From Candidatus Peribacteria bacterium (GTDB lineage Bacteria; Patescibacteriota; Gracilibacteria; BD1-5; UBA6164), in NCBI GenBank assembly GCA_023898505.1, contig CP060226.1:159420-191419 (forward strand): a stretch of DNA of 32,000 bases, in the 5' to 3' direction. Below are positions 8,477 through 19,318 of this stretch, in pieces. The position numbers were made by a program, and so were the translations under genes. The first letter of the stretch is position 1; each line of letters starts with the position of its first letter. Under the pieces are notes generated by a model that did not search any database, was not told the origin of the DNA, and saw only the letters and a list, made by a program, of their open reading frames with translations.

Positions 8477-9946
8477 TTATATTTGTTTCAAAATATTTTC
8501 GATTCTTTCTATTGACTTTTCTTTCCCGAGGATATAAACAAGTTCAAGAGCCCCAGGAGAAAACTCTTCTCCACTCAGTGCTACACGTACAGGCCAAAGC
8601 ACCTGTCCATTTTTATATCCAGCATTGCTGATACCAGAGATAAAGGCATCTTTTATACTCTCTAAACTTCCTACATCCGTTGTTTCTAAGATACTACGAG
8701 CAAGTTTCAAAGCCTCTTGCACCATGGTCATATCCGTAATCTTCATCTTTTCATGTAAAAAGAGGCTTGTATCTACAGCTCCTACTTCTCCATAGAAAAA
8801 CTTTGTCAGTTCTGGTAAATCGCTAAATTTCTTAATGCGTGTCGTCAATTCTCTGAGAATCTTCATATTATAGGATTCATCATAGGATTGTATCTTCACA
8901 AGAAACTCTGTATTGTAGCGCTCTAAATAGGTTATCCACTTATGATAGAGCATATCAATATCCATAGATTTCAAATAGTGGGCATTGAAAAAATCAAGAC
9001 GATCGACATCAAAAATAGCCCCAGCCTTATGTACGTGCTCCAGATTAAATCTTGCAATCAGTTCCGTGATCGTAAAAAACTCTTCTGTGGTTTTTGGATT
9101 CCACCCCAAAAGGGCAATATAGTTAATGAGTGCCTCAGTTAAATACCCTTTTTCTAAGTATTGTTCTACCGCGACATCTCCTGTTCTTTTTGAAAGTTTT
9201 TTCTTGTCTATCCCAAGAAGGAGGGGGATATGACTAAACGTTGGAGGAGTCCAACCAAAGGCTTCATAGAGGAGGATGTGTTTTGGGGTACTTGGAGTCC
9301 ACTCATCTCCACGAATAACGTGGGTGACATTCATCAAGTGATCATCTACCACATTGGCAAGATGATAGGTAGGAAAACCGTCAGATTTTAAGAGGACTTG
9401 ATCATCGATATCTTTGGTATGCACCGTTACTTTTCCTTTAATCGTATCATGAAATACTACTTCCCTATCTTTTGGTACCTTGAGACGAACCGTATATGGT
9501 ACTCCTGCATCGAGTTGTTCTTGTATTTCTTCAGCTGTCATATAACGACAGTGCCCATCATATTTAGTAGGAAGAGAAAGCTCTTGTTGTTCTTTTCTTA
9601 GCGTATCAAGACGTTCACTACTACAAAAACAATAATAGGCCATATCACTATCGATGAGCTGTTGCACATACTGTGTATAGATATCGAGTCTCTCTGACTG
9701 ATAGTATGGTCCGAGATCTCCCGGGTTATTTGGTCCTTCGTCAGGAATCAGCCCGACAGAGGCGAGTACTTTGAGCATATTTTCTATACTTCCCTCGACA
9801 TAACGAGTACGATCTGTATCCTCTACTCTGAGCATAAACTTACCGTTATGTTGTTTGGCATAAAGATAGTTATATAAAACAGTTCTCAGACTTCCGATAT
9901 GAAGATACCCAGTAGGACTTGGAGCAAAGCGAGTAACAACGGTCAT
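8477..9946 (-). CDS. gltX: glutamyl-tRNA synthetase
   Basis: Intact 489-aa ORF. N-terminus RFAPSPTGYLHIGSLRT (HIGH motif) and a KLSKR (KMSKS-type) motif. No in-frame TGA. Confidence 0.95.
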   Translation of the reverse strand: MTVVTRFAPSPTGYLHIGSLRTVLYNYLYAKQHNGKFMLRVEDTDRTRYVEGSIENMLKVLASVGLIPDEGPNNPGDLGPYYQSERLDIYTQYVQQLIDSDMAYYCFCSSERLDTLRKEQQELSLPTKYDGHCRYMTAEEIQEQLDAGVPYTVRLKVPKDREVVFHDTIKGKVTVHTKDIDDQVLLKSDGFPTYHLANVVDDHLMNVTHVIRGDEWTPSTPKHILLYEAFGWTPPTFSHIPLLLGIDKKKLSKRTGDVAVEQYLEKGYLTEALINYIALLGWNPKTTEEFFTITELIARFNLEHVHKAGAIFDVDRLDFFNAHYLKSMDIDMLYHKWITYLERYNTEFLVKIQSYDESYNMKILRELTTRIKKFSDLPELTKFFYGEVGAVDTSLFLHEKMKITDMTMVQEALKLARSILETTDVGSLESIKDAFISGISNAGYKNGQVLWPVRVALSGEEFSPGALELVYILGKEKSIERIENILKQI

Positions 9947-10142
9947 AAAAATTGTATTTACATTAATAATCCCTCCCTTCCACTTTGTTTCAGGAGCTCC
10001 CTTTGAAAAAGGGAGAAAAAAGATGTATATTCCTTAGTGTAACAAATTTTATGTGTTTGTAAACCTCAATTATGTGCAAATATTTCTGAATGGAGCAGAT
10101 TTTTGCTATACTAAAGATATATTTTATTTCTAAATTATCTCT

Positions 10143-10766
10143 ATGACTGTAGTAGCCCAGAAAAAGAAATCGCTTGATCTTGTGAGTACCCTAATCCCAA
10201 CGGTTATCGATAAAACTCCACAAGGAGAAAGAGCTTATGATATTTACTCTCGTTTACTGGAAGATAGGGTTATATTTTTAGGAGAAGCGATTGATAGTGC
10301 GGTAGCAAATACGGTTATTGCACAGTTGCTGTTTCTTGAAAAACAAGACTCAAAAGCAGGTATTACGATGTATGTAAACTCTCCAGGGGGACACGTGACA
10401 GCAGGTCTTGCCATCTATGATACGATGCAGTATGTGAGCTGTCCAGTAACAACGGTTTCTATCGGATTATCCGCCTCTATGGGTTCTATTATCCTAGCAG
10501 GAGGAGAAAAAGGAAAACGCTACGCACTTCCTCATAGTGAAATCATGATTCATCAACCACTTGGTGGAGCCGAAGGACAAGCAACCGATATCAAAATTGC
10601 CGCAGAGCATATCATCCGTACAGGAGCTAGGCTCTATAAAATACTTGCAAAGCATACCGGTAAATCTGTAGAACAGGTAGAAAAAGACTGTGATAGAGAT
10701 AACTTTATGACCGCCGAGGAGGCCCTTGCATACGGTTTGATTGATAAAATTATTAAAAATAAATAA
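10143..10766 (+). CDS. clpP: ATP-dependent Clp protease proteolytic subunit
   Basis: Intact 207-aa ORF with a catalytic triad context ([21 protein letters not shown]). No in-frame TGA. Confidence 0.95.
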
Positions 10767-10792
10767 AAGAGCGGAATATCCGCTCTTTTATT
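10762..10792. repeat. 31-nt direct repeat copy 1; also a bidirectional terminator hairpin
   Basis: AATAAAAGAGCGGAATATCCGCTCTTTTATT is identical to 16179..16209. Stem AAAAGAGCGG / CCGCTCTTTT. It overlaps the clpP stop (10764..10766) and the DUF262-HNH stop (10788..10790). Confidence 0.85.
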
Positions 10793-11951
10793 TGTTTCCC
10801 TTTGCTCTATTATGAGTCTTACAAAGCATCTCACAGTTTGAGATGTCTGTTCCCCCTCCTTTACTCCAAGCAGTAACATGATCTGCATCCATTTCAGCAA
10901 GTTTCCAGATTTTGTTTTTATTGGCATCATGTCAGACAGCGCAGTACGAACAGTTGGAAACTCATTTTGTTTCTGCTTCTTGAGCTTGTTTTTTGTATAC
11001 TGACATTTTCGTCGCATCATCAAAGATACGTACTTCTAACAATTTTGTATCCTGCATTCCACCAAGAACGTATTCAAACACTCATTTTCTATTTTTTACA
11101 TATGAGTCGGCATAAAGCTTTTGTACTTCTATAGAAACTTGTAGAGGATCAAAGGCTTTTTTATGATACTGTTCATAGAGTTTTCCCCATTCAAGACCAC
11201 ACATTTCTTTTTCGACATCTCGAAATACACTCGAAACCCAATCAATCACACTCGTAAAATAGGTCTTTAATTCGGCAATCGTATGTTCATATCTATGACG
11301 ACTCATATAGTCATCGATTTTTCCTTTACTTACCCAATCCAAGGCTCTCTCTAAAAACTCTTGTCTATTCGCACTTCCCTTGATATAAGCGGACCATTTT
11401 TGAATATTCGCATTTTGAGTATTACTAAACTCTTCTTTTGCCAGAGTTACAAACGGTCAGGAATAAATTGCATTGAGAAGTTCTTGATTATTCAGCGGAA
11501 CTCCTGAAATATTGATCGTTTTAAACCATTCTTTGATCTCGCTTTCTTCACCTTCACACTCATAGATAAGTAGCGGAGTTTCTAAGATAATCCTTTGCTT
11601 ATCGGCTGGGAGACTCCCAAAGTGTTGTTCCATCCCGTGTTCATCTTTTACCGCAAATTTATCCGTCACATAGCGACCAATACTCGTAATACGCTGCTGT
11701 CCATCGAGTACCTCATATTTTTCTTCTGCCACTTTTACAAAATAAATTAGTCCGAGAGGATAGCCCTTGAGAATTGATTCTATCACGGCAACATCTTTTT
11801 TCCCATCGGCATAGATATAGTTTCTTTGGTACTCTGGTTGAATCGTCAGTTTTCCAGAAAGTCCAAAGAGTCCTTTCCCTTCGAGTTCGTTGTAGACAAA
11901 TCCTTCACAAATATCTTTGACAGTGATGGTAGTCTTGAGAGTTGTTTTCAT
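10788..11951 (-). CDS. DUF262 (ParB-like nuclease/NTPase) protein with C-terminal HNH endonuclease domain
   Basis: Track pieces 11457..11951 and 11082..11342 plus an untracked C-terminus form one frame (1164 nt) with in-frame TGA at 11457, 11082, 10962 and 10932. Contains the DUF262 motif [12 protein letters not shown]. The HNH tail reads CSYCAV[TGA][38 protein letters not shown]. Confidence 0.85.
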
Positions 11952-11968
11952 AAGAACTATTTTAAAAA

Positions 11969-12847
11969 TTATTTTTTTGCTATTTTATTTGTTTTCCCCA
12001 ATTTTATATACGTTTCATTATTAAGTTTTTTCACTGACTTTATAAAATCTTCATTATTGAGACGAATAAGCATTTCTTGTCCTGTTTCCCTCAGAAATTT
12101 AAATCTTTCTTCCTTATCAAGTCACTTTTTTATCATATCATCATTCAGTGTTTCCAATCGAGATATAACAACAAGCTCATTAATACTTGCATAATCTCTT
12201 TGATTTTTCCCTCAAAGTGCTAACTTTGGATTTACATCAGCCCATTCTTTTTGAGTATATCACCATACTGCTACATTTAATAAGTCGGCTTCTTCAGCAT
12301 AATGTATCCATTTTTTATTTTTTGGATACTGTGATTTTGGAATAATATATTCTTTTACAGCATCTGTTTGGAGTCTATAATTAACTTTAGCCAAAACACG
12401 ATTTACACTCCATTCAAGGTTATAGGTATTGTTTTCAATATCTTTTAATCTCTGGTATTCTTTTATAAGGAGGAGTTTAAATGTAGGACTGATCCACGTT
12501 CAAAATTCAAAAGCAATATCCTTATGTGCATAGGTTCATCCATATCTTCCTGTTTTTGCGAATATTCCTATAGCATTGGTACGTTCTACCCACTCTTTCA
12601 CACTGACTTTATGTGTATTGGAACCTGCATGACTTCTAATTATGGCATATTCGCCATAATTAAAATCTGGATTATGCATTTGTTCCCATGCTGCCAAGAA
12701 CTCAAGTGTATTCGCATTTCTCAGCCAATCAGTAATAAAAAACTCTCCTTCTTTTGCTTCCAGCATATCTGTGATACAGATAAAATCCTCTGAATCCTGA
12801 TTCAAAGTATTGATAACGATATCATTGATTTTTATCTCTGGAGTCAT
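11969..12847 (-). CDS. KilA-N domain-containing protein
   Basis: Extends the track ORF 12536..12847 through five in-frame TGA to TAA at 11969 (879 nt). [27 protein letters not shown][TGA][12 protein letters not shown] matches the KilA-N/ORF6N-type signature. Confidence 0.8.
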
Positions 12848-12863
12848 AATTTATATATTTAAA

Positions 12864-13148
12864 TTACAAAAAATCAAAATCCCGATTCTTTCCGTCCTTC
12901 CCAACTATTAAGTATTGCTTAATAGTTGTCTCTCCAATTTCCCCATCACGCATAAGCGTCTTGATATGTTGGTTTATAGCTGGTACAGAAACTCCATACA
13001 ACTCTGCCATAAGTTTTTGCGTCATCCATAAATTTTCGTCCTCATAACGAAGTTCTACGATCGTCTTTTGATCTCCGATAGCAGAGGCATAGCTGAGGTA
13101 TTCGGCTGCGGAGGAGCGAATAGTTATGTTTTTCTTCTTTTGAGGCAT
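12864..13148 (-). CDS. RhuM-family N-terminal (wHTH) fragment, probably a truncated remnant
   Basis: ATG 13148. IVELRYEDENLWMTQKLMAELYGVSVPAINQHIKTL resembles the N-terminus of RhuM-like proteins. The ORF stops after 94 aa, where full-length members continue. Confidence 0.5.
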   Translation of the reverse strand: MPQKKKNITIRSSAAEYLSYASAIGDQKTIVELRYEDENLWMTQKLMAELYGVSVPAINQHIKTLMRDGEIGETTIKQYLIVGKDGKNRDFDFL

Positions 13149-13217
13149 AGTGTTTAAAGTAAATATTTTAGCTTGTTGAGAGGGAGGTTTTTCTGGATTT
13201 GTATATGACAAAATAGA

Positions 13218-14979
13218 TTATTTATTAAATCAAAAAAGTTCATTAATTTTCCCAAATAGAGGTATGAAATTTTTAAAGTCTTCTTTCGGCAAGTTGACAA
13301 GCTTTTTCCAGAAGTTTTTCTTTCCTTTAATTTTTACTATTTTTGTTCATCAGCTAGGTTCAGAAAAACCATCAAAGTAATCTATTTTTTGCAATACATC
13401 ATCTTCAAATAAATGCTCTAAAAATAAATAATTATGAGTATAACTTTCATCCGCATATGTATTTCGTGAAGATGGAACAGGAATTAATATGGAATGAAAA
13501 TTTTTATGATCTCACCTTGTTCTTGTTAAACATGTTTCCTTATTTCCATTTATTTCTAACCAACGAGTAGATTTCAATCCGTTAAAATTGTGAAAGCCAT
13601 CATCGAAATCGAAGATTCCTATTACTTTTTCTTGTTGTAGTTCATCAATTACTGGTGTATCTAAATATTTTTGCAAATTCTCTCTCCCATTTTTATCAAA
13701 AATAAAAAATGGAGAATTTTCCTCAAAAAGTTTTTCAAAATCATTTTCTACAAATGAAATATCCTTTAGTTTTAACCAAGCAATCTTATATATCTGCTTT
13801 TTATTGTCCTCTACAAAAACATTACATCTTTGTTTTTCGATGTTTTTTCCTAAATGTTCGCTTAGTTTTTGATATGTTTCAATAATCCCGATTTCTTTTT
13901 CTATCTCATCTGTATCATTTTCAAATCAAGAACCTGATATTGTTCTTTGCTTCCAATCAATTTTCCCAATTTGAGAAGAATTACTTTCGTTTTTTACTCT
14001 ATAAGAAGACACATTATCGCCCTTTAATGCTATAAATGGGAAAGAGTGTGAAGTTATAAAAATTTGCTTTTCCTCTCCATATTTTAAGAAATCTTGAGCC
14101 AAGGAGAAACAACGAAGCGGTTCATAAGAATTTTCAGGTTCTTCAAACCCCCATATGACCCTTTTCTTTGAATCTTTAGATATCTCGTTCAATATATCAG
14201 GAATAAATCTAGCTTGAATCCCATCACCTCTATCAAACAAAGATATACCATTTTCTGTTTCAATACCTACTGTTCTAACAAAATCTATTAAGGTATTTGG
14301 AATGTTAAATTGAGCATCTACTCCAGTACTACTTTTAAAATCATCAAAAAGTCTTTCTGTTTCTTCTCTAAGTAAGTTATTTAATTTTAGAGAATGGTCT
14401 TCAAATTTATTTTTTGATTTTTTATTTTGCTTTTCAAATAAAAATTGTTGGAGCTTTTCAAAAAGGAAATTAAAAAATTTTCTATCTTTTACAGCCGGGA
14501 CATATTCAAACTGGATATTATTCAGAAATTGAGATAACTGTCACTCTTGAGCTCTGGCTTTTTTGGGATCAATATTTTTTTTAATGTTATGTTTTCTTGT
14601 TTGATTAAGTCAATTTTTATCCCATATTTTCTCAACATAAAACTTTTCAGGTAAAACACCTCATGTCTCCTTAATGAAATGGATTTTTACTTTTACCCAT
14701 TACATCAACAGCACCTTTGTCTCTATTTGCTTCAGCTTTTTTATCACTTCTATCCCTTTGTATTTTTGATAAATCCCTCTTTAAATCAAATGGAACTCCG
14801 GGGGCAACTTCATTATTAAAAAATAAATTTAATGCTCGAAGAATATTTGATTTCCCAGAATCGTTTTTCCCAGAAAAAATATTTACATCTTGTAAGTCAA
14901 TAATCTCTACTTTCTTTTGTCCTCTTGATCAATCAAAAGACCTAAAATGTTTGATTTCAATTTTCTCTATTATTTTCAT
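13218..14979 (-). pseudogene. frameshifted ABC-type ATPase (AAA_15/21, OLD/AriA-like) fused to a TOPRIM/DUF4435-like C-terminal domain
   Basis: ATG 14979 opens a frame with Walker A FSGKNDSGKSNILRALN that ends at TAA 14671..14673. The remainder lies in the adjacent frame from about 14697 to TAA 13218: FEYVPAVKD, LFDRGDGIQ, Walker B IWGFEEPENSYEP, H-loop FITSHS, then VFVED..IGIFDFDDG. The total of 1762 nt is not a multiple of 3. About 9 in-frame TGA. Confidence 0.7.
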
Positions 14980-14983
14980 GTTT

Positions 14984-16069
14984 TTAGCTCTTATGTTTAA
15001 TTAAAATTCTTTTATATACAAATTCACCTAACAATAACGGAGCTCAACCTTTATCTCGAAAACCAGTAATATGATATTGATTATTTTCAGTAGCAATATT
15101 TGCATCAGCTCTACCTACAATCTCAAACTGTTCAGGACTATACTTATCCAAAAAACTAATCGGCACCCCCATCACACCATCATAATCACTCGGAATATTT
15201 TTTGCAAGAGATACTTCAATAGCATCATAGTTATCGTATTTTTGAAATGGCTGATTGGTAGAAAATTTTATAATGTCTGCCTCTTTCATAAGTGGCATTG
15301 GTTGATGGCGACGACCATGATCAATATTGGAAAACCAACAAACTCATGGAACACGACTAACCCTTTCTCCATTCTGTTCTTTCTCAAATTTATATGAATC
15401 GGCATACACAAAATCTTCGGGAACCTTGAAATACATTCCTCGATTAAAATTTGTTGCTCCCAACCATACTTCATTCTCCTTTATCAAAGGAAACACCTCC
15501 TTGTAAGTAATCGCGTTCATATTCCCAATAATCGCAAACTTCTTCTTTGCCTCCACAATCCACGCTAAAAACTCCCTAAAAAGCGAAAAAGGAGGATTGG
15601 TGATGATGATATCGGCTTCATCACGGAGCTTCTTTATTTCCTCACTACGAAAATCCCCGTCTCACTTGAGATAGTGCCACTCGAGATCTTCTACGTCGAC
15701 CTTGCCATCTCCCGTTGTATCGCGCGTAAGAGTAAAAATCTTTCCGTTTTTCCTGGTCTTTTTCTCATCAAATTGAGGAGCATTTGTTTCAAAAAGACTC
15801 GGTTGATAATTACTCTTATAGAGTTTACTCTCTGTTGCGTAACTTGTAGAAATGAGTTTCTTAAGACCAAATCGTTCAAAATTTTGTGCGAAAAACTTCG
15901 TGAAATTACTCCATTCTGGATCATCACAAGGAAGCAAAATAGTTTTATTCTTAAATACATCAGGATTATAATCAATATAGGCTTGAATTTCCTTATTGAT
16001 ATCATGATACTGGGTATAAAACTCATCGTTTTTTGCTTTTTTTGCTTGAGTAAGATTTTGGTTTGCCAT
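14984..16069 (-). CDS. EcoRI-family N6-adenine DNA methyltransferase
   Basis: Track pieces 15662..16069, 15344..15556 and 15044..15298 share one frame and are joined by TGA at 15659 and 15341. TGA at 15044 reads through to TAA 14984. Contains KNDEFYTQY, LLPCDDPEWSNFTKFF and catalytic IITNPPFSLF (NPPF motif IV). The stop lies 4 nt before the ATPase ATG. Confidence 0.85.
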
Positions 16070-16178
16070 AGATCTTATTGTAATAGTTTATACCTCGATT
16101 GTATATAAAATGTATATTATACTTTTCTTCTAAAAAATCAATAGTTTTCTTTACTATATTCACTCTTGAGACTTTCGC

Positions 16179-16209
16179 AATAAAAGAGCGGAATATCCGC
16201 TCTTTTATT
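16179..16209. repeat. 31-nt direct repeat copy 2; terminator hairpin downstream of the ParA-like gene
   Basis: Identical to 10762..10792. Lies between the methyltransferase upstream region and the ParA-like stop (16234). Confidence 0.85.
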
Positions 16210-16233
16210 GCCTCTTTCCTCGATAATTTTTTA

Positions 16234-17319
16234 CTAAGAATTTAGGTTGAGTAAATTTTTAGCGATATTTCTATAGGATCTATCTATACTACGTAATGCT
16301 TTTGTATATTGTCATGAATCTGTAGTAACATCTACTTGAGTATCGTGTTTTTTACATATATCTTGATCGAGATATATTACGGGAATTCCTTCTTTTTCAG
16401 CAATAGTTCTTAATTTTTGAGTGAAATCACAACACTTTTCAATGACAAATGGTATACTTTCCTTTCAGAAAATAGCACGAAATTCATTTTCAGTAATAGA
16501 TTTATTTGTCTCTAGTGTGTAAGTCTGGAAGTTTTTTACACTCCTATTTACATCTGCAATCCAATCTTCGGTTGCCTTAGAAAATCCTTCAGTATTCTTT
16601 AATACCCCATTATTAAAGCGTTTTGCTAATTGTATTACGAGACCTAAAAACTTTACTTTAAATGATAGCCCTTGAGGGAATCCTTGGGTTTGTCTATATG
16701 GAGATAATAGCTCCATCCAGTTTTGAAATATAGTAGATAAGTTATCGATAGCCTGAAGGGAAAAGAAACTCGGAGAGACGGGGGCGATAAAATAATCACT
16801 CGACATTACTAATAAAGCGTTAATGATACTGCTTGCGCTGGGGGAGGTATCGATAAGAATAAAATCATATTTCTCTGATTTAGATTTGAGTGCTTGCTCA
16901 AACTTATACGGAAGTTTATCAGTAAATGTATTTCGATTTTTGATAATCCCGTAAAGATTCGCTTCTACATTTGTAAGATTGATATCTCCAGAAATCAAGT
17001 CCACTTGACCATTTTTTGATATCTTACTTTGTTTGGAAAATAAGGATTTATCCACTTTCTCATCTTCTAGAAATTCTTTTAGATACTCTGAAAAAGATAT
17101 GTATTGTTGCGTATTTTTAGACCACAACGAGTTTTGTTCTGTTGAATATTCTACACTGGTAGATAATCCATACATTGCGGATGTTAAATTCATTTGTGGG
17201 TCAGCGTCTATCAGTAATACTTTTTTTCATGTGTCAGCAAGGGCGAAAGCAATATTATGAACGAGTGTTGTTTTTCCAACTCATCATTTATGATTAAAAA
17301 AAGAAATGATATTTCGCAT
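16234..17319 (-). CDS. ParA/MinD-family P-loop ATPase with C-terminal extension (361 aa)
   Basis: ATG 17319. The deviant Walker A is encoded as N-H-K-[TGA]-[TGA]-V-G-K-T-T (17281..17286). LLIDADPQ and FILIDTSPSASS motifs are present. Further TGA at 17227, 16465 and 16312. TAG stop at 16234. Confidence 0.85.
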
Positions 17320-17396
17320 ATCTATTCGCTATTTAAAAAATAATTATATCTACAGGTATCTTACGAGAAGCAATAAAAATATCAATAAAAAACTTC

Positions 17397-18296
<900 letters not shown>

Positions 18297-18302
18297 ATAT
18301 CT

Positions 18303-18399
18303 GTCATTCCTGCGAAGGCAGGAATCAATTAAAATATTAAATACTTATTGTATAGATTCCTGCCTTTCCCGCTAAAACGGGACACGGCGCAGGAATGAC
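18303..18399. repeat. nested palindromic (REP-like) element
   Basis: The outer 12-nt inverted repeat is GTCATTCCTGCG (18303..18314) / CGCAGGAATGAC (18388..18399). The inner hairpins are ATTCCTGC-GAAG-GCAGGAAT (18306..18325) and ATTCCTGC..CCCG-CTAAAA-CGGG..GCAGGAAT (18356..18396). Confidence 0.6.
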
Positions 18400-18410
18400 T
18401 TTAAGGTGTG

Positions 18411-19088
18411 CTATTTTCAGAAATTACGTTTACAGTTCTCAAAGTATGCTATTACCTTATCCAGCTCTTCTTCATCAAACTCTGGCCATTTTTTTTCGGT
18501 AAAATAATACTCACTATAATCACTATCATAGAGGAGAAAACCACTATGACGGACATCTCCGCCTGTACGGACAATGACATCTGGCCTTGGGAGAATCGAT
18601 ACATCCAGGTATTCTCGAAAGTTTTCTGTTGTCAGATCATCGATGTTCTTCCCTGTTGCGATGTATCGTTTGATTCCGCGGATGATTTCATCTTGTCCAC
18701 CATAAATAAGCGCAATCGTCAGTGTGAGACTATTGCAGTGAGAAGTAGAGGCCATAAGCTCTTCTAATACTTTTTGTGAAGACTCTGGGAGTCGTATGGT
18801 ATCTCCAATCACTTGTACCTGTATATCTTCACTCAGAAACTTCTTTTTGAGATTAATCGCAGAATTAAGCAGTTTGATAATGCCTCCTACTTCATCGGGA
18901 GAACGTTTTTCTAGATTTTCTGTGGACAAGGCCCAAACAGTAAGGTACTTAATTCCTTTATTTTTACAAAGTTCTGTCATCTTCTGGAGATTATCATATC
19001 CAGCTTTATGACCTGCAATTTTTGGAAGCATTCGTTCTTTTGCCCAGCGACGATTTCCATCCATGATGATGGCAAGGTGGTGTAGCAT
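18411..19088 (-). CDS. uppS: undecaprenyl diphosphate synthase
   Basis: HLAIIMDGNRRWAK and ..RTGG..R.SGFLLYDSDYSEYYF are the cis-prenyltransferase signature. The apparent stop at 18417 is TGA; the true stop is TAG at 18411..18413. Confidence 0.92.
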
Positions 19089-19318
19089 GAAGAGTAGTTA
19101 AAAGGGTAAAGTAAAAAGTATAAAGGGGTAATTATTCTGAAGGCATCTCCCTAAATAGAACTTTCCTTTTCATTCTGAACTTGCTTGTCTCGAGAACTCG
19201 GTGAATGCAGAACCATCACTGTAGATTTCTATTTTTGATACTTGAGAAATGATTATTATCTTCGAGTTTGTTCCACAGGAATAGCATTTACCCTTTACTC
19301 TTTATGCTTTCTTCTTTC

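What the first reader, a model, noticed from the sequence alone, without database searches (positions are those of the whole stretch)
13218..14979. Single-polypeptide ABC-ATPase + TOPRIM/DUF4435-like architecture resembling a fused PARIS (AriA-AriB) or OLD-type nuclease
The N-terminal two thirds have SMC/ABC-type motifs: Walker A GKNDSGKSN, signature-like DRGDGIQ, Walker B FEEPENSYEP and H-loop ITSHS, typical of AAA_15/AAA_21 ATPases. The C-terminal roughly 230 aa contain an acidic VFVED element and IGIFDFDDG. These are compatible with the TOPRIM Glu and DxD motifs of OLD nucleases and the DUF4435 partner of PARIS. Its position directly downstream of a DNA methyltransferase and next to a DUF262-HNH nuclease fits the known habit of PARIS/OLD-like systems to sit beside restriction systems as an anti-anti-restriction layer. 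Such a system has not, to my knowledge, been characterised in a code-25 CPR bacterium. The TOPRIM assignment rests on short motifs and is tentative.
Basis: inference. Interest (0 to 1): 0.65.

Follow-up and report, generated by a model that had tools for sequence, protein, structure and literature searches.

The report
Broken ABC-ATPase/Toprim defence gene
This is a Gracilibacteria copy of a widespread but uncharacterised one-protein 'ATPase sensor plus Toprim nuclease' anti-phage gene that usually sits inside restriction-modification operons. In this strain a 14-base deletion has broken it, while an intact copy survives in related populations.

Summary

It belongs to a large family: more than 1,800 homologues of 580-690 aa, in 63 species across many phyla. 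All of them have this fused architecture. The closest relatives sit between hsdM and hsdS of type I restriction-modification operons.

The C-terminal domain is Toprim-like only by indirect evidence:
- No Pfam or PADLOC model hits it directly.
- Foldseek on the domain alone finds nothing significant. The best TM-scores, 0.40-0.45, are to OLD C-terminal regions.
- It is clearly homologous (hhalign 99.7%) to a sister-clade domain that weakly matches AriAB, AriB/DUF4435, OLD-like Toprim and retron I-C Toprim models.
- A full-length model of a 71%-identical homologue matches the retron-Eco8 OLD-like effector, GajA and Thermus OLD best.

So it is an OLD-like/PARIS-like single-chain nuclease, but not a demonstrable PARIS member.

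New here: the frameshift is a real 14-bp deletion at 14699/14700. Three independent metagenome assemblies carry the deletion and two others carry the intact allele. The window copy is therefore most likely a pseudogene. I rate it a new variant of a known kind, of moderate interest.

The parts
13218..14979 (-). Whole ABC-ATPase/Toprim-like gene, a pseudogene in this strain. Restoring the 14 missing bases gives one 591-aa ORF under code 25.
14671..14979 (-). Frame A: the first 93 residues of the protein, including Walker A, then 10 out-of-frame codons and a TAA stop.
13218..14699 (-). Frame B (+1 relative to A): residues 94-586, covering the rest of the ATPase, the linker and the Toprim-like domain.
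14699..14701 (-). Site of the 14-bp deletion. The intact allele has GACAAAGAGACTTA (minus strand) here, encoding RQRDL. A 1-nt ambiguity (A) affects the exact placement.
   Evidence: runs X4 and X5 carry the 14 bases; X1 and X3 do not; X7 does not; restored ORF
14845..14871 (-). Walker A / P-loop GKNDSGKSN (residues 37-45).
14214..14234 (-). ABC signature-like motif DRGDGIQ (residues 249-255). R250, D252 and Q255 are invariant.
14133..14162 (-). Walker B RVIWGFEEPE (residues 273-282). W276, E279, E280, P281 and E282 are invariant.
14043..14057 (-). H-loop ITSHS (residues 308-312). H311 is invariant.
13221..13826 (-). C-terminal Toprim-like domain (residues 385-586). It carries E390/D391 after strand 1, D457-x-D459 after strand 3, PVP 500-502 and E521.
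14984..16069 (-). EcoRI-type adenine methyltransferase, 361 aa, intact. Its stop lies 4 nt before the start of the target gene.
   Evidence: (PF13651, E 1.8e-128)
12864..13148 (-). 94-aa HTH fragment: only the N-terminal part of a RhuM-like protein (PADLOC PDC-S05). The full-length form in locus L032 is 335 aa.
11969..12847 (-). KilA-N domain protein, 292 aa (PADLOC PDC-S22, full length).
10788..11951 (-). DUF262 (GmrSD_N) + HNH nuclease, 387 aa. It matches a PADLOC type II REase model over its full length and is the likely restriction partner of the methyltransferase.
   Evidence: (E 6.9e-88; same pairing in L015)
10761..10793 (.). Left copy of a 30-nt hairpin repeat that brackets the cassette.
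16177..16211 (.). Right copy of the same hairpin repeat.

Best explanation
The locus is a decayed copy of a single-chain ABC-ATPase/Toprim nuclease. The family has the OLD-like design: the same domain logic as P2 Old, GajA, the retron-Eco8 effector and PARIS.

Shown here:
- The intact protein is 591 aa.
- It has an AAA_15-type ABC ATPase head (about residues 1-320) with a poorly predicted helical insertion at about 170-240.
- A linker follows, then a 200-aa alpha/beta domain whose invariant acidic residues (E390/D391, D457/D459, E521) sit where a Toprim fold places its metal ligands.

Inferred by analogy with characterised relatives:
- The ATPase part holds the nuclease inactive and senses a phage cue. 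A plausible cue is interference with the neighbouring restriction system.
- The Toprim site then cuts nucleic acid (tRNA as AriB does, or DNA as OLD/GajA do) and aborts the infection.
- The gene travels as a self-sufficient cassette that prefers to sit inside restriction-modification operons.

In this Gracilibacteria strain, a 14-bp deletion after codon 93 separates the Walker A segment from the rest of the protein. The gene is therefore most likely non-functional. The flanking methyltransferase and DUF262-HNH nuclease remain intact.
For: ATPase identity:
- Pfam AAA_15, AAA_21 and AAA_23 match over residues 4-316.
- All ATPase motifs are invariant in 108 homologues.

Family coherence:
- More than 1,800 homologues, aligned end to end.
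- The C-terminal domain is found in 833 clusters at 50% identity. Among the 150 best that are listed, the full-length proteins (about 570-700 aa) carry it at the C-terminus; many shorter entries are probably fragments.

Toprim-like domain:
- The AF2 model of the domain has pLDDT 95. The invariant E follows strand 1 and the DxD follows strand 3.
- hhalign gives 99.7% probability, E 1.3e-25, to the sister-clade domain.
- That sister domain hits PADLOC AriAB (5.7e-8; 5.6e-12 for full-length P0024), AriB (1.2e-6), RT-Toprim_I-C (1e-6), Pfam DUF4435 (1.2e-5) and OLD-like_TOPRIM (0.003).
- P0027, whose C-terminus is of the window type, hits RT-Toprim_I-C at 2.5e-4.

Whole-protein fold:
- The best PDB matches are the retron Eco8 effector, GajA and Thermus OLD (E 1e-14 to 1.7e-11), aligned over about 520-550 columns.

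Defence context:
- P0004, P0018 and P0011 lie between hsdM and hsdS with overlapping stop and start codons.
- P0024 lies next to an Mrr-type nuclease gene.
- About 14 of 63 species loci have HsdM within 8 kb.
- L015 has the same EcoRI-type MTase plus DUF262-HNH nearby.
- The distribution is patchy across many phyla and one archaeon.

Pseudogene:
- The deletion allele is in independently assembled contigs of X1 (depth 46), X3 (depth 17, another study) and X7.
- The intact allele is in X4 and X5, from two further studies.
- Restoring the 14 bases recreates the family consensus VRQRDLWVK.
Against: - No profile model hits the window's C-terminal domain directly.
- The domain alone has no significant structural neighbour: best Foldseek E 0.08, and TM 0.40-0.45 to OLD C-terminal regions, below the 0.5 usually taken to indicate the same topology.
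- AriB did not appear among the top 50 structural hits.
- All sister-clade Pfam hits are below the gathering thresholds.
- No member of the family has been tested, so defence activity, trigger and substrate are inference.
- Many family members are solitary, with no restriction gene detected within 8 kb.
- Contigs cannot show minor alleles, so an intact minority in the window's own population is not excluded.
Confidence: 0.62

Rival explanations
1. It is a true merged PARIS system (AriAB). The ATPase part senses anti-restriction proteins such as Ocr, and the DUF4435 Toprim cleaves tRNA-Lys.
For: - Merged ariAB clades exist (PMC11464382).
- The sister clade's linker plus the first half of its Toprim hits the PADLOC AriAB model (5.6e-12) and DUF4435 (1.2e-5).
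- The placement inside restriction operons fits an anti-anti-restriction role.
Against: - The window-type domain has no DUF4435, AriB or AriAB hit.
- The AriAB match in the sister clade covers only about 90 residues.
- The PADLOC AriA models have the lengths of Pfam AAA_15 and AAA_21, so they probably say nothing specific about PARIS.
- Whole-protein fold hits favour the Eco8 effector, GajA and OLD. No PARIS chain is in the top 50.
Confidence: 0.2
2. The gene is still functional in this strain. It is either made as one protein by programmed +1 frameshifting, or as two polypeptides that reassemble.
For: - Both frames remain open to their ends, and the deletion allele is the dominant or only allele assembled in three samples.
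- The rest of the gene differs from the intact X4 allele by only one base over 1.1 kb, so there is no further decay.
Against: - The lesion is a 14-bp deletion relative to a co-existing intact allele. It also removes five conserved residues (RQRDL).
- The break falls inside the ATPase core, between Walker A and the rest.
- None of the homologues aligned here shows a split at this point. In the 50%-cluster search, the short hits that are listed are C-terminal pieces, consistent with fragments.
- A neighbouring RhuM-like gene is also truncated, which suggests the island is decaying.
Confidence: 0.07
3. The frameshift is a sequencing or assembly error and the gene is intact.
For: AT-rich, low-complexity sequence surrounds the site.
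Against: - The same 14-bp gap appears in contigs assembled separately from three runs of two studies, at depths 46, 17 and 3. Two other runs show the 14 bases.
- A 14-bp indel is not a typical homopolymer error.
Confidence: 0.03
4. The family is not a defence effector. It is an accessory or housekeeping ABC ATPase, for example a RecF/SMC-like DNA-repair factor or a helper of type I restriction complexes.
For: - Weak N-terminal similarity to SMC, RecF and Rad50 heads.
- Many copies are solitary.
Against: - These similarities cover only the universal ABC head.
- The distribution is patchy across phyla, and the gene is polymorphic for loss.
- It is embedded between hsdM and hsdS and sits next to Mrr, RhuM, integrase and methyltransferase genes. 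All of this is typical of mobile defence genes.
Confidence: 0.08

Closest known systems
Class 1 OLD-family nucleases (P2 Old, Thermus scotoductus OLD, PDB 6P74) and the related GajA and retron-Eco8 effector
   Same: - One polypeptide with an N-terminal AAA_15-type ABC ATPase, a helical insertion and a C-terminal Toprim-type acidic site (E ... DxD ... E).
- These are the best whole-protein fold matches.
- The best TM-scores for the isolated C-terminal domain are to OLD C-terminal regions 6NK8 and 6NJW.
   Different: - Pfam OLD-like_TOPRIM does not hit the window protein.
- TM-scores are only 0.40-0.45.
- A family profile finds no OLD, GajA or AriA chain in the PDB by sequence.
- There is no helicase or retron partner.
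- The typical home is inside type I restriction operons.
PARIS (AriA + AriB/DUF4435), including the merged AriAB forms
   Same: - ABC ATPase plus Toprim, sometimes fused (PMC11464382).
- A functional link to restriction systems.
- The sister clade of this family hits the AriAB, AriB and DUF4435 models weakly.
   Different: - There is no direct DUF4435 or AriB match for the window-type domain, which carries a 12-residue insertion (KIAWLKLxxxxx) after the first helix.
- PARIS works by releasing AriB from an AriA hexamer, which a fused chain cannot do in the same way.
- Trigger and substrate are unknown here.
HEC-04 (ABC ATPase fused to Toprim, embedded in Hma systems; bioRxiv 10.1101/2024.01.29.577857)
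   Same: - A single-gene ATPase-Toprim fusion found embedded inside another defence system.
- For HEC-04, defence was shown to need both the Walker A motif and the Toprim residues.
   Different: - No HEC-04 model is among the 25 best PADLOC hits, and the C-terminal domain hits nothing.
- The embedding host system differs: type I or type II restriction-modification here, Hma for HEC-04.
PrrC / RloC anticodon nucleases
   Same: An ABC-ATPase-like N-domain plus a C-terminal nuclease, encoded inside a type I restriction operon (hsdM-hsdS-prrC-hsdR). PrrC acts as a guardian that fires when restriction is inhibited.
   Different: The effector domain here is alpha/beta with E/DxD (Toprim-like), not the PrrC anticodon-nuclease domain. 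No PrrC model is among the listed hits.

Membership tests
OLD-family nucleases (single-chain ABC ATPase + Toprim) | N-terminal AAA_15/AAA_21 ABC ATPase with Walker A, signature, Walker B and H-loop | tested here: met
   Pfam AAA_15 at 3.1e-14 (53.8 bits, above GA 32.1) and AAA_21 at 1.6e-10. The motifs are invariant in 108 homologues.
OLD-family nucleases (single-chain ABC ATPase + Toprim) | C-terminal domain recognised as OLD-type Toprim (PF20469) | tested here: not met
   No hit for the window domain at E up to 10. Sister-clade domains reach only 17-18.5 bits, below GA 23.2.
OLD-family nucleases (single-chain ABC ATPase + Toprim) | Toprim catalytic layout: Glu at the end of strand 1, DxD at the end of strand 3, and further acidic residues | tested here: met
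   E390/D391 follow predicted strand 1, D457-x-D459 follow strand 3, and E521 is nearly invariant. This rests on predicted secondary structure. No 3D check of side-chain convergence was possible.
OLD-family nucleases (single-chain ABC ATPase + Toprim) | Structural similarity to solved OLD-family proteins | tested here: inconclusive
   The full-length model of P0001 matches the Eco8 effector at 1e-14, GajA at 2.5e-14 and Ts OLD at 1.7e-11. The isolated C-terminal domain reaches only TM 0.40-0.45 and E 0.2-0.27 to 6NJW and 6NK8.
OLD-family nucleases (single-chain ABC ATPase + Toprim) | Metal-dependent nuclease activity stimulated or controlled by ATP | not testable with these tools
   Needs biochemistry.
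PARIS (AriA/AriB or merged AriAB) | DUF4435 (PF14491) Toprim effector | tested here: inconclusive
   The direct test is negative. Indirectly, the sister-clade domain hits DUF4435 at 1.2e-5 (25.6 bits, below GA 27), AriB at 1.2e-6 and AriAB at 5.7e-8. It is homologous to the window-type domain (hhalign 99.7%).
PARIS (AriA/AriB or merged AriAB) | ATPase belongs to the AriA clade | not tested
   The PADLOC 'AriA' models that hit (PDLC02979, 373 positions; PDLC02980, 304 positions) have the lengths of Pfam AAA_15 (374) and AAA_21 (304). They score similarly to the GajA, Old and HEC-01A models. No phylogeny was built.
PARIS (AriA/AriB or merged AriAB) | Activation by anti-restriction proteins and cleavage of tRNA-Lys | not testable with these tools
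   Known for E. coli B185 PARIS (PMC11464382, PMC12409363).
HEC-04 | Match to PADLOC HEC-04 models | tested here: inconclusive
   HEC-04 is not among the 25 best of 56 PADLOC families for the full protein, and there is no hit for the C-terminal domain. Hits ranked below 25 were not shown.
PrrC/RloC | C-terminal anticodon-nuclease domain | tested here: not met
   The C-terminal domain is a strand-helix alternating fold with E/DxD. No PrrC or RloC model is listed.
Genetic code 25 (Gracilibacteria/Absconditabacteria) | In-frame UGA aligns with Gly in homologues | tested here: met
   7 of 9 in-frame TGA codons of the gene align with conserved Gly. Examples are FDGG, KNGL, QEGQL and PSGGT. Housekeeping genes also carry in-frame TGA. 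ValRS is 75% identical to Gracilibacteria proteins.

The most novel reading that the evidence does not exclude
The family is an undescribed restriction-embedded 'guardian', distinct from PARIS, OLD, Gabija and HEC-04. It would be a single chain whose ABC head monitors the neighbouring restriction-modification complex, or a phage inhibitor of it, and whose divergent Toprim then cuts tRNA or DNA. The intact/deleted polymorphism seen in wastewater Gracilibacteria would reflect ongoing selection against a costly suicide gene in a reduced-genome, code-25 episymbiont.
Probability: 0.25. Interest if true: 0.55.

Novelty: new variant of a known kind. Interest (0 to 1): 0.4.

Why it matters
ABC-ATPase/Toprim nucleases (OLD, Gabija, PARIS, retron effectors) are a major theme in anti-phage immunity.

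This family shares the design but escapes the current Pfam and PADLOC models on its nuclease half. Defence-annotation tools would therefore label it only 'AAA family ATPase'. It is widespread (833 clusters at 50% identity, many phyla), and its closest members are wired into type I restriction operons at the position PrrC occupies. That makes it a good candidate for a further 'restriction guardian'.

For this particular window the practical message is more modest. The gene is broken, so it should be annotated as a pseudogene. The natural intact/deleted allele pair offers a ready-made control for functional tests.

Tried and rejected
- **Sequence searches against PDB chains.** I queried with the protein, the family profile, the C-terminal profile and the sister-clade domain. 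Only generic SMC/Rad50 head hits or noise came back.
- **Foldseek of the C-terminal domain against BFVD.** Nothing significant. The highest-probability hit was a DnaG-type Toprim (prob 0.41, E 0.27).
- **Structure prediction of the window's own repaired protein.** I used the 71%-identical P0001 and its C-terminal segment instead.
- **NCBIfam.** It gave only sub-threshold SMC, RecF and MAD3 head hits.
- **Exhaustive search with the C-terminal profile, to find other architectures such as stand-alone AriB-like or RT-fused proteins.** Nearly all strong hits have the same fused architecture or are probable fragments. Only two longer proteins (991 and 1043 aa) turned up, and I did not follow them.
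- **Promoter and terminator scan.** Promoter-like sites are no more frequent than in shuffled sequence. Only the two hairpins are notable.
- **Programmed frameshifting and assembly error.** I considered both as explanations for the two frames and rejected them on the allele evidence.
Full report
**What is in the sequence**

The finding's coordinates are exact. The gene lies on the minus strand from an ATG at 14979 to a TAA at 13218-13220. With table 11 the region is a litter of short ORFs. With TGA read as a sense codon it resolves into two long overlapping frames:
- Frame A, 14671-14979, 103 aa.
- Frame B, 13218-14699, 493 aa, shifted by +1.

Of the nine in-frame TGA codons, seven align with Gly that is conserved in homologues, for example FDGG, ETGGVLP, KNGL, QEGQL and PSGGT. 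Two database homologues (P0028, P0049) even show Trp at the Walker A Gly. This is the signature of code-25 genes mis-translated with code 4.

Housekeeping genes of the window also carry in-frame TGA. The window's ValRS is 75% identical to proteins named Candidatus Gracilibacteria. The code-25 CPR host is therefore confirmed.

**The protein and its family**

The joined protein has more than 1,800 homologues with E <= 1e-3. The best has E 9e-277 and 71% identity. Almost all of the 120 listed cover 98-100% of the query and are 580-690 aa long. The fused architecture is therefore the rule in this family.

Pfam places AAA_15, AAA_21 and AAA_23 on residues 4-316. Across 108 homologues the following are invariant:
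- the Walker A Gly and Lys-Ser (G42, K43, S44);
- R250, D252 and Q255 of the signature-like DRGDGIQ;
- W276, E279, E280, P281 and E282 of Walker B;
- H311 of the H-loop.

In the C-terminal 200 residues the invariant or nearly invariant positions are E390 and D391 (VFVED), D457 and D459 (FDFD), P500 and P502, and E521.

**Is the C-terminal domain a Toprim?**

Direct tests fail:
- Pfam and PADLOC give no hit for the window's domain, even at E = 10.
- Sequence and profile searches of PDB chains find nothing beyond SMC/Rad50 heads.
Yet it has no significant Foldseek neighbour in the PDB or BFVD. The highest TM-scores in the PDB list are to the C-terminal regions of Burkholderia and Xanthomonas OLD (0.44 and 0.40). 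The highest-probability viral hit is a DnaG-type Toprim.

Indirect evidence is stronger:
- (i) In the model the invariant Glu follows strand 1 and the DxD follows strand 3, which is the Toprim layout.
- (ii) A sister clade (P0020-P0026) is 53-57% identical to the window protein overall. It carries a variant C-terminus (YVEGKWDKIY ... IFDRDK). That variant hits PADLOC AriAB (5.7e-8; 5.6e-12 for full-length P0024), AriB (1.2e-6), retron RT-Toprim_I-C (1e-6), Pfam DUF4435 (1.2e-5, just under threshold) and OLD-like_TOPRIM (0.003).
- (iii) hhalign shows the window-type and variant-type domains are homologous over 186 columns (99.7%, E 1.3e-25). The window type has a 12-residue insertion after the first helix.
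- (iv) P0027, whose C-terminus is of the window type, hits RT-Toprim_I-C at 2.5e-4.
- (v) The full-length model (pLDDT 83) finds the retron-Eco8 OLD-like effector, GajA and Thermus OLD as its best PDB matches (E 1e-14 to 1.7e-11), aligned over about 520-550 columns. That span includes the C-terminal part.

I conclude the domain is a divergent Toprim of the OLD/DUF4435 radiation, with moderate confidence.

**PARIS or OLD?**

Fused AriA-AriB proteins are already described. The literature reports two 'merged' clades and places PARIS as class 4 of the OLD-like systems (PMC11464382).

The PADLOC 'AriA' models that top the hit list have the lengths of Pfam AAA_15 and AAA_21. They score no better than the GajA, Old, HEC-01A and AbiLi models, so they do not argue for PARIS specifically. 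The only PARIS-specific signal is the partial AriAB/DUF4435 hit in the sister clade. Whole-protein fold matches favour the Eco8 effector, GajA and OLD.

Membership in PARIS is thus unproven. The safest label is 'single-chain OLD-like ABC-ATPase/Toprim nuclease, unclassified clade'. An experimentally validated analogue of the design is HEC-04, an ATPase-Toprim fusion embedded in Hma systems. Its defence needs both active sites (bioRxiv 10.1101/2024.01.29.577857).

**Genomic context**

In the window the gene starts 4 nt after the stop of an intact EcoRI-type adenine methyltransferase (PF13651, E 1.8e-128). Downstream on the same strand lie:
- a 94-aa HTH fragment (PADLOC PDC-S05);
- a KilA-N protein (PDC-S22);
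- an intact DUF262+HNH nuclease that matches a PADLOC type II REase model end to end (E 6.9e-88).

So the DUF262-HNH gene is not adjacent but two genes away. The target sits inside what looks like a methyltransferase/nuclease operon. GC drops to 0.29-0.32 here, against 0.35-0.41 around it.

Relatives show the same habit:
- P0004, P0018 and P0011 lie between hsdM and hsdS of type I operons, with overlapping stop and start codons.
- P0024 lies next to an Mrr-type nuclease gene.
- P0013 lies beside an N6/N4 methyltransferase and an integrase.
- About 14 of 63 species-representative loci have an HsdM homologue within 8 kb.
- L015 has the same EcoRI-type methyltransferase, a Bro-N-like gene and DUF262-HNH 1.7 kb away.

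Other copies, for example in Bacteroidota, are solitary. The family is scattered over Margulisiibacteriota, Peregrinibacteria, Gracilibacteria, Saccharibacteria, Bacteroidota, Proteobacteria, Acidobacteriota, Verrucomicrobiota, an Archaeoglobus and others. That pattern is typical of mobile defence genes.

The C-terminal domain occurs in 833 clusters at 50% identity. Among the 150 best hits listed, full-length proteins have this same fused architecture and the shorter entries look like fragments.

**The frameshift**

Alignment with homologues places the break at ...GAVDV|WVKVKIHF, where relatives read ...VRQ(K/R)DLWVKI.... Laying independently assembled contigs of public metagenomes on the region explains it:
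- Runs X4 and X5 (two studies) carry 14 extra bases after 14699: + strand TAAGTCTCTTTGTC, minus strand GACAAAGAGACTTA.
- Runs X1 (depth 46) and X3 (depth 17, another study) match the window.
- X7 also matches the window.

Inserting the 14 bases gives a single 591-aa ORF reading ...AVDVRQRDLWVKV..., which is the family consensus.

The window therefore carries a genuine 14-bp deletion allele, not an assembly error. The site offers nothing that suggests programmed frameshifting. The deletion cuts the ATPase core between Walker A and the rest and removes five conserved residues, so the copy is most likely a pseudogene.

Over 1.1 kb the X4 allele otherwise differs by a single base, so the lesion is recent.

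The adjacent RhuM-like gene is also reduced to its N-terminal HTH: 94 aa here against 335 aa in L032, where a full-length copy directly follows the family gene. The island as a whole is decaying, while its methyltransferase and nuclease stay intact.

**Mechanism (inferred)**

By analogy with OLD, GajA, PARIS and HEC-04, the ABC head probably dimerises, uses its helical insertion (about residues 170-240, low pLDDT) as a sensing or oligomerisation surface, and gates a two-metal Toprim nuclease.

The preferred location inside restriction operons is the position PrrC occupies in EcoprrI. This suggests a guardian role that fires when restriction is inhibited. Whether the substrate is tRNA (as for AriB) or DNA (as for OLD and GajA) cannot be told from sequence.

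**Verdict**

The architecture and the defence context are right. The Toprim assignment is indirect, PARIS membership is unproven, and the gene is broken in this strain.
- Novelty: a new variant of a known kind. The design is known, but the family is uncharacterised and invisible to current models on its nuclease half.
- Interest is moderate.

Noticed in passing
window 10761-10793 and 16177-16211: Two same-orientation copies of an identical 30-nt sequence (AATAAAAGAGCGGAATATCCGCTCTTTTAT) that forms a strong hairpin. None is expected by chance. They bracket exactly the cassette from the DUF262-HNH gene to the methyltransferase, and the ParA-like gene lies just outside. They could be bidirectional terminators or the boundaries of an inserted cassette.
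   Followed up: partly
window 12864-13148 (-): The 94-aa HTH ORF directly downstream of the target is only the N-terminal part of a RhuM-like protein (PADLOC PDC-S05, E 4e-20). A full-length 335-aa copy directly follows the family gene in L032 (10171-11178), and a truncated copy follows it in L021. This is a second decayed gene in the island and possibly a recurrent partner of the family.
   Followed up: partly
homologues P0020-P0026 (e.g. L005 6001-7743): A sister clade keeps the same ATPase (53-57% identity to the window protein overall). Its Toprim domain has the more canonical VEGxxD...DRD form and lacks the 12-residue insertion. The extreme C-terminal helix (DFxNFxPLFxKI) is conserved in both.
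   Followed up: yes
homologues P0028 and P0049: These database proteins show Trp where the family has conserved Gly, including the Walker A Gly (DSWKSN). They are code-25 genes that a source pipeline translated with code 4.
   Followed up: no
L011 (P0013 locus) vs window 8477-19097: In L011 the family gene, a methyltransferase and an integrase lie between uppS and gltX. In the window the island also lies between gltX (8477-10033) and uppS (18411-19097). This may be a shared integration hotspot.
   Followed up: no
window 16234-17319 (-): A ParA/AAA_31-type ATPase (361 aa) sits alone just outside the hairpin-bounded cassette. No ParB-like partner was noticed. It might be a remnant of a mobile element.
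   Followed up: no
L015 287-3183 and L059 1-1722: The DUF262-HNH nuclease recurs near family members in other phyla. In L015 it comes with an EcoRI-type methyltransferase and a Bro-N-like protein between them, mirroring the window's MTase / KilA-N / nuclease order. This suggests a restriction-modification module with an embedded DNA-binding protein.
   Followed up: partly
window 13135 region (run X5): One low-depth contig of run X5 lacks 4 bases at about 13135, just after the start of the RhuM-like fragment. This is further small-indel polymorphism in the island.
   Followed up: no
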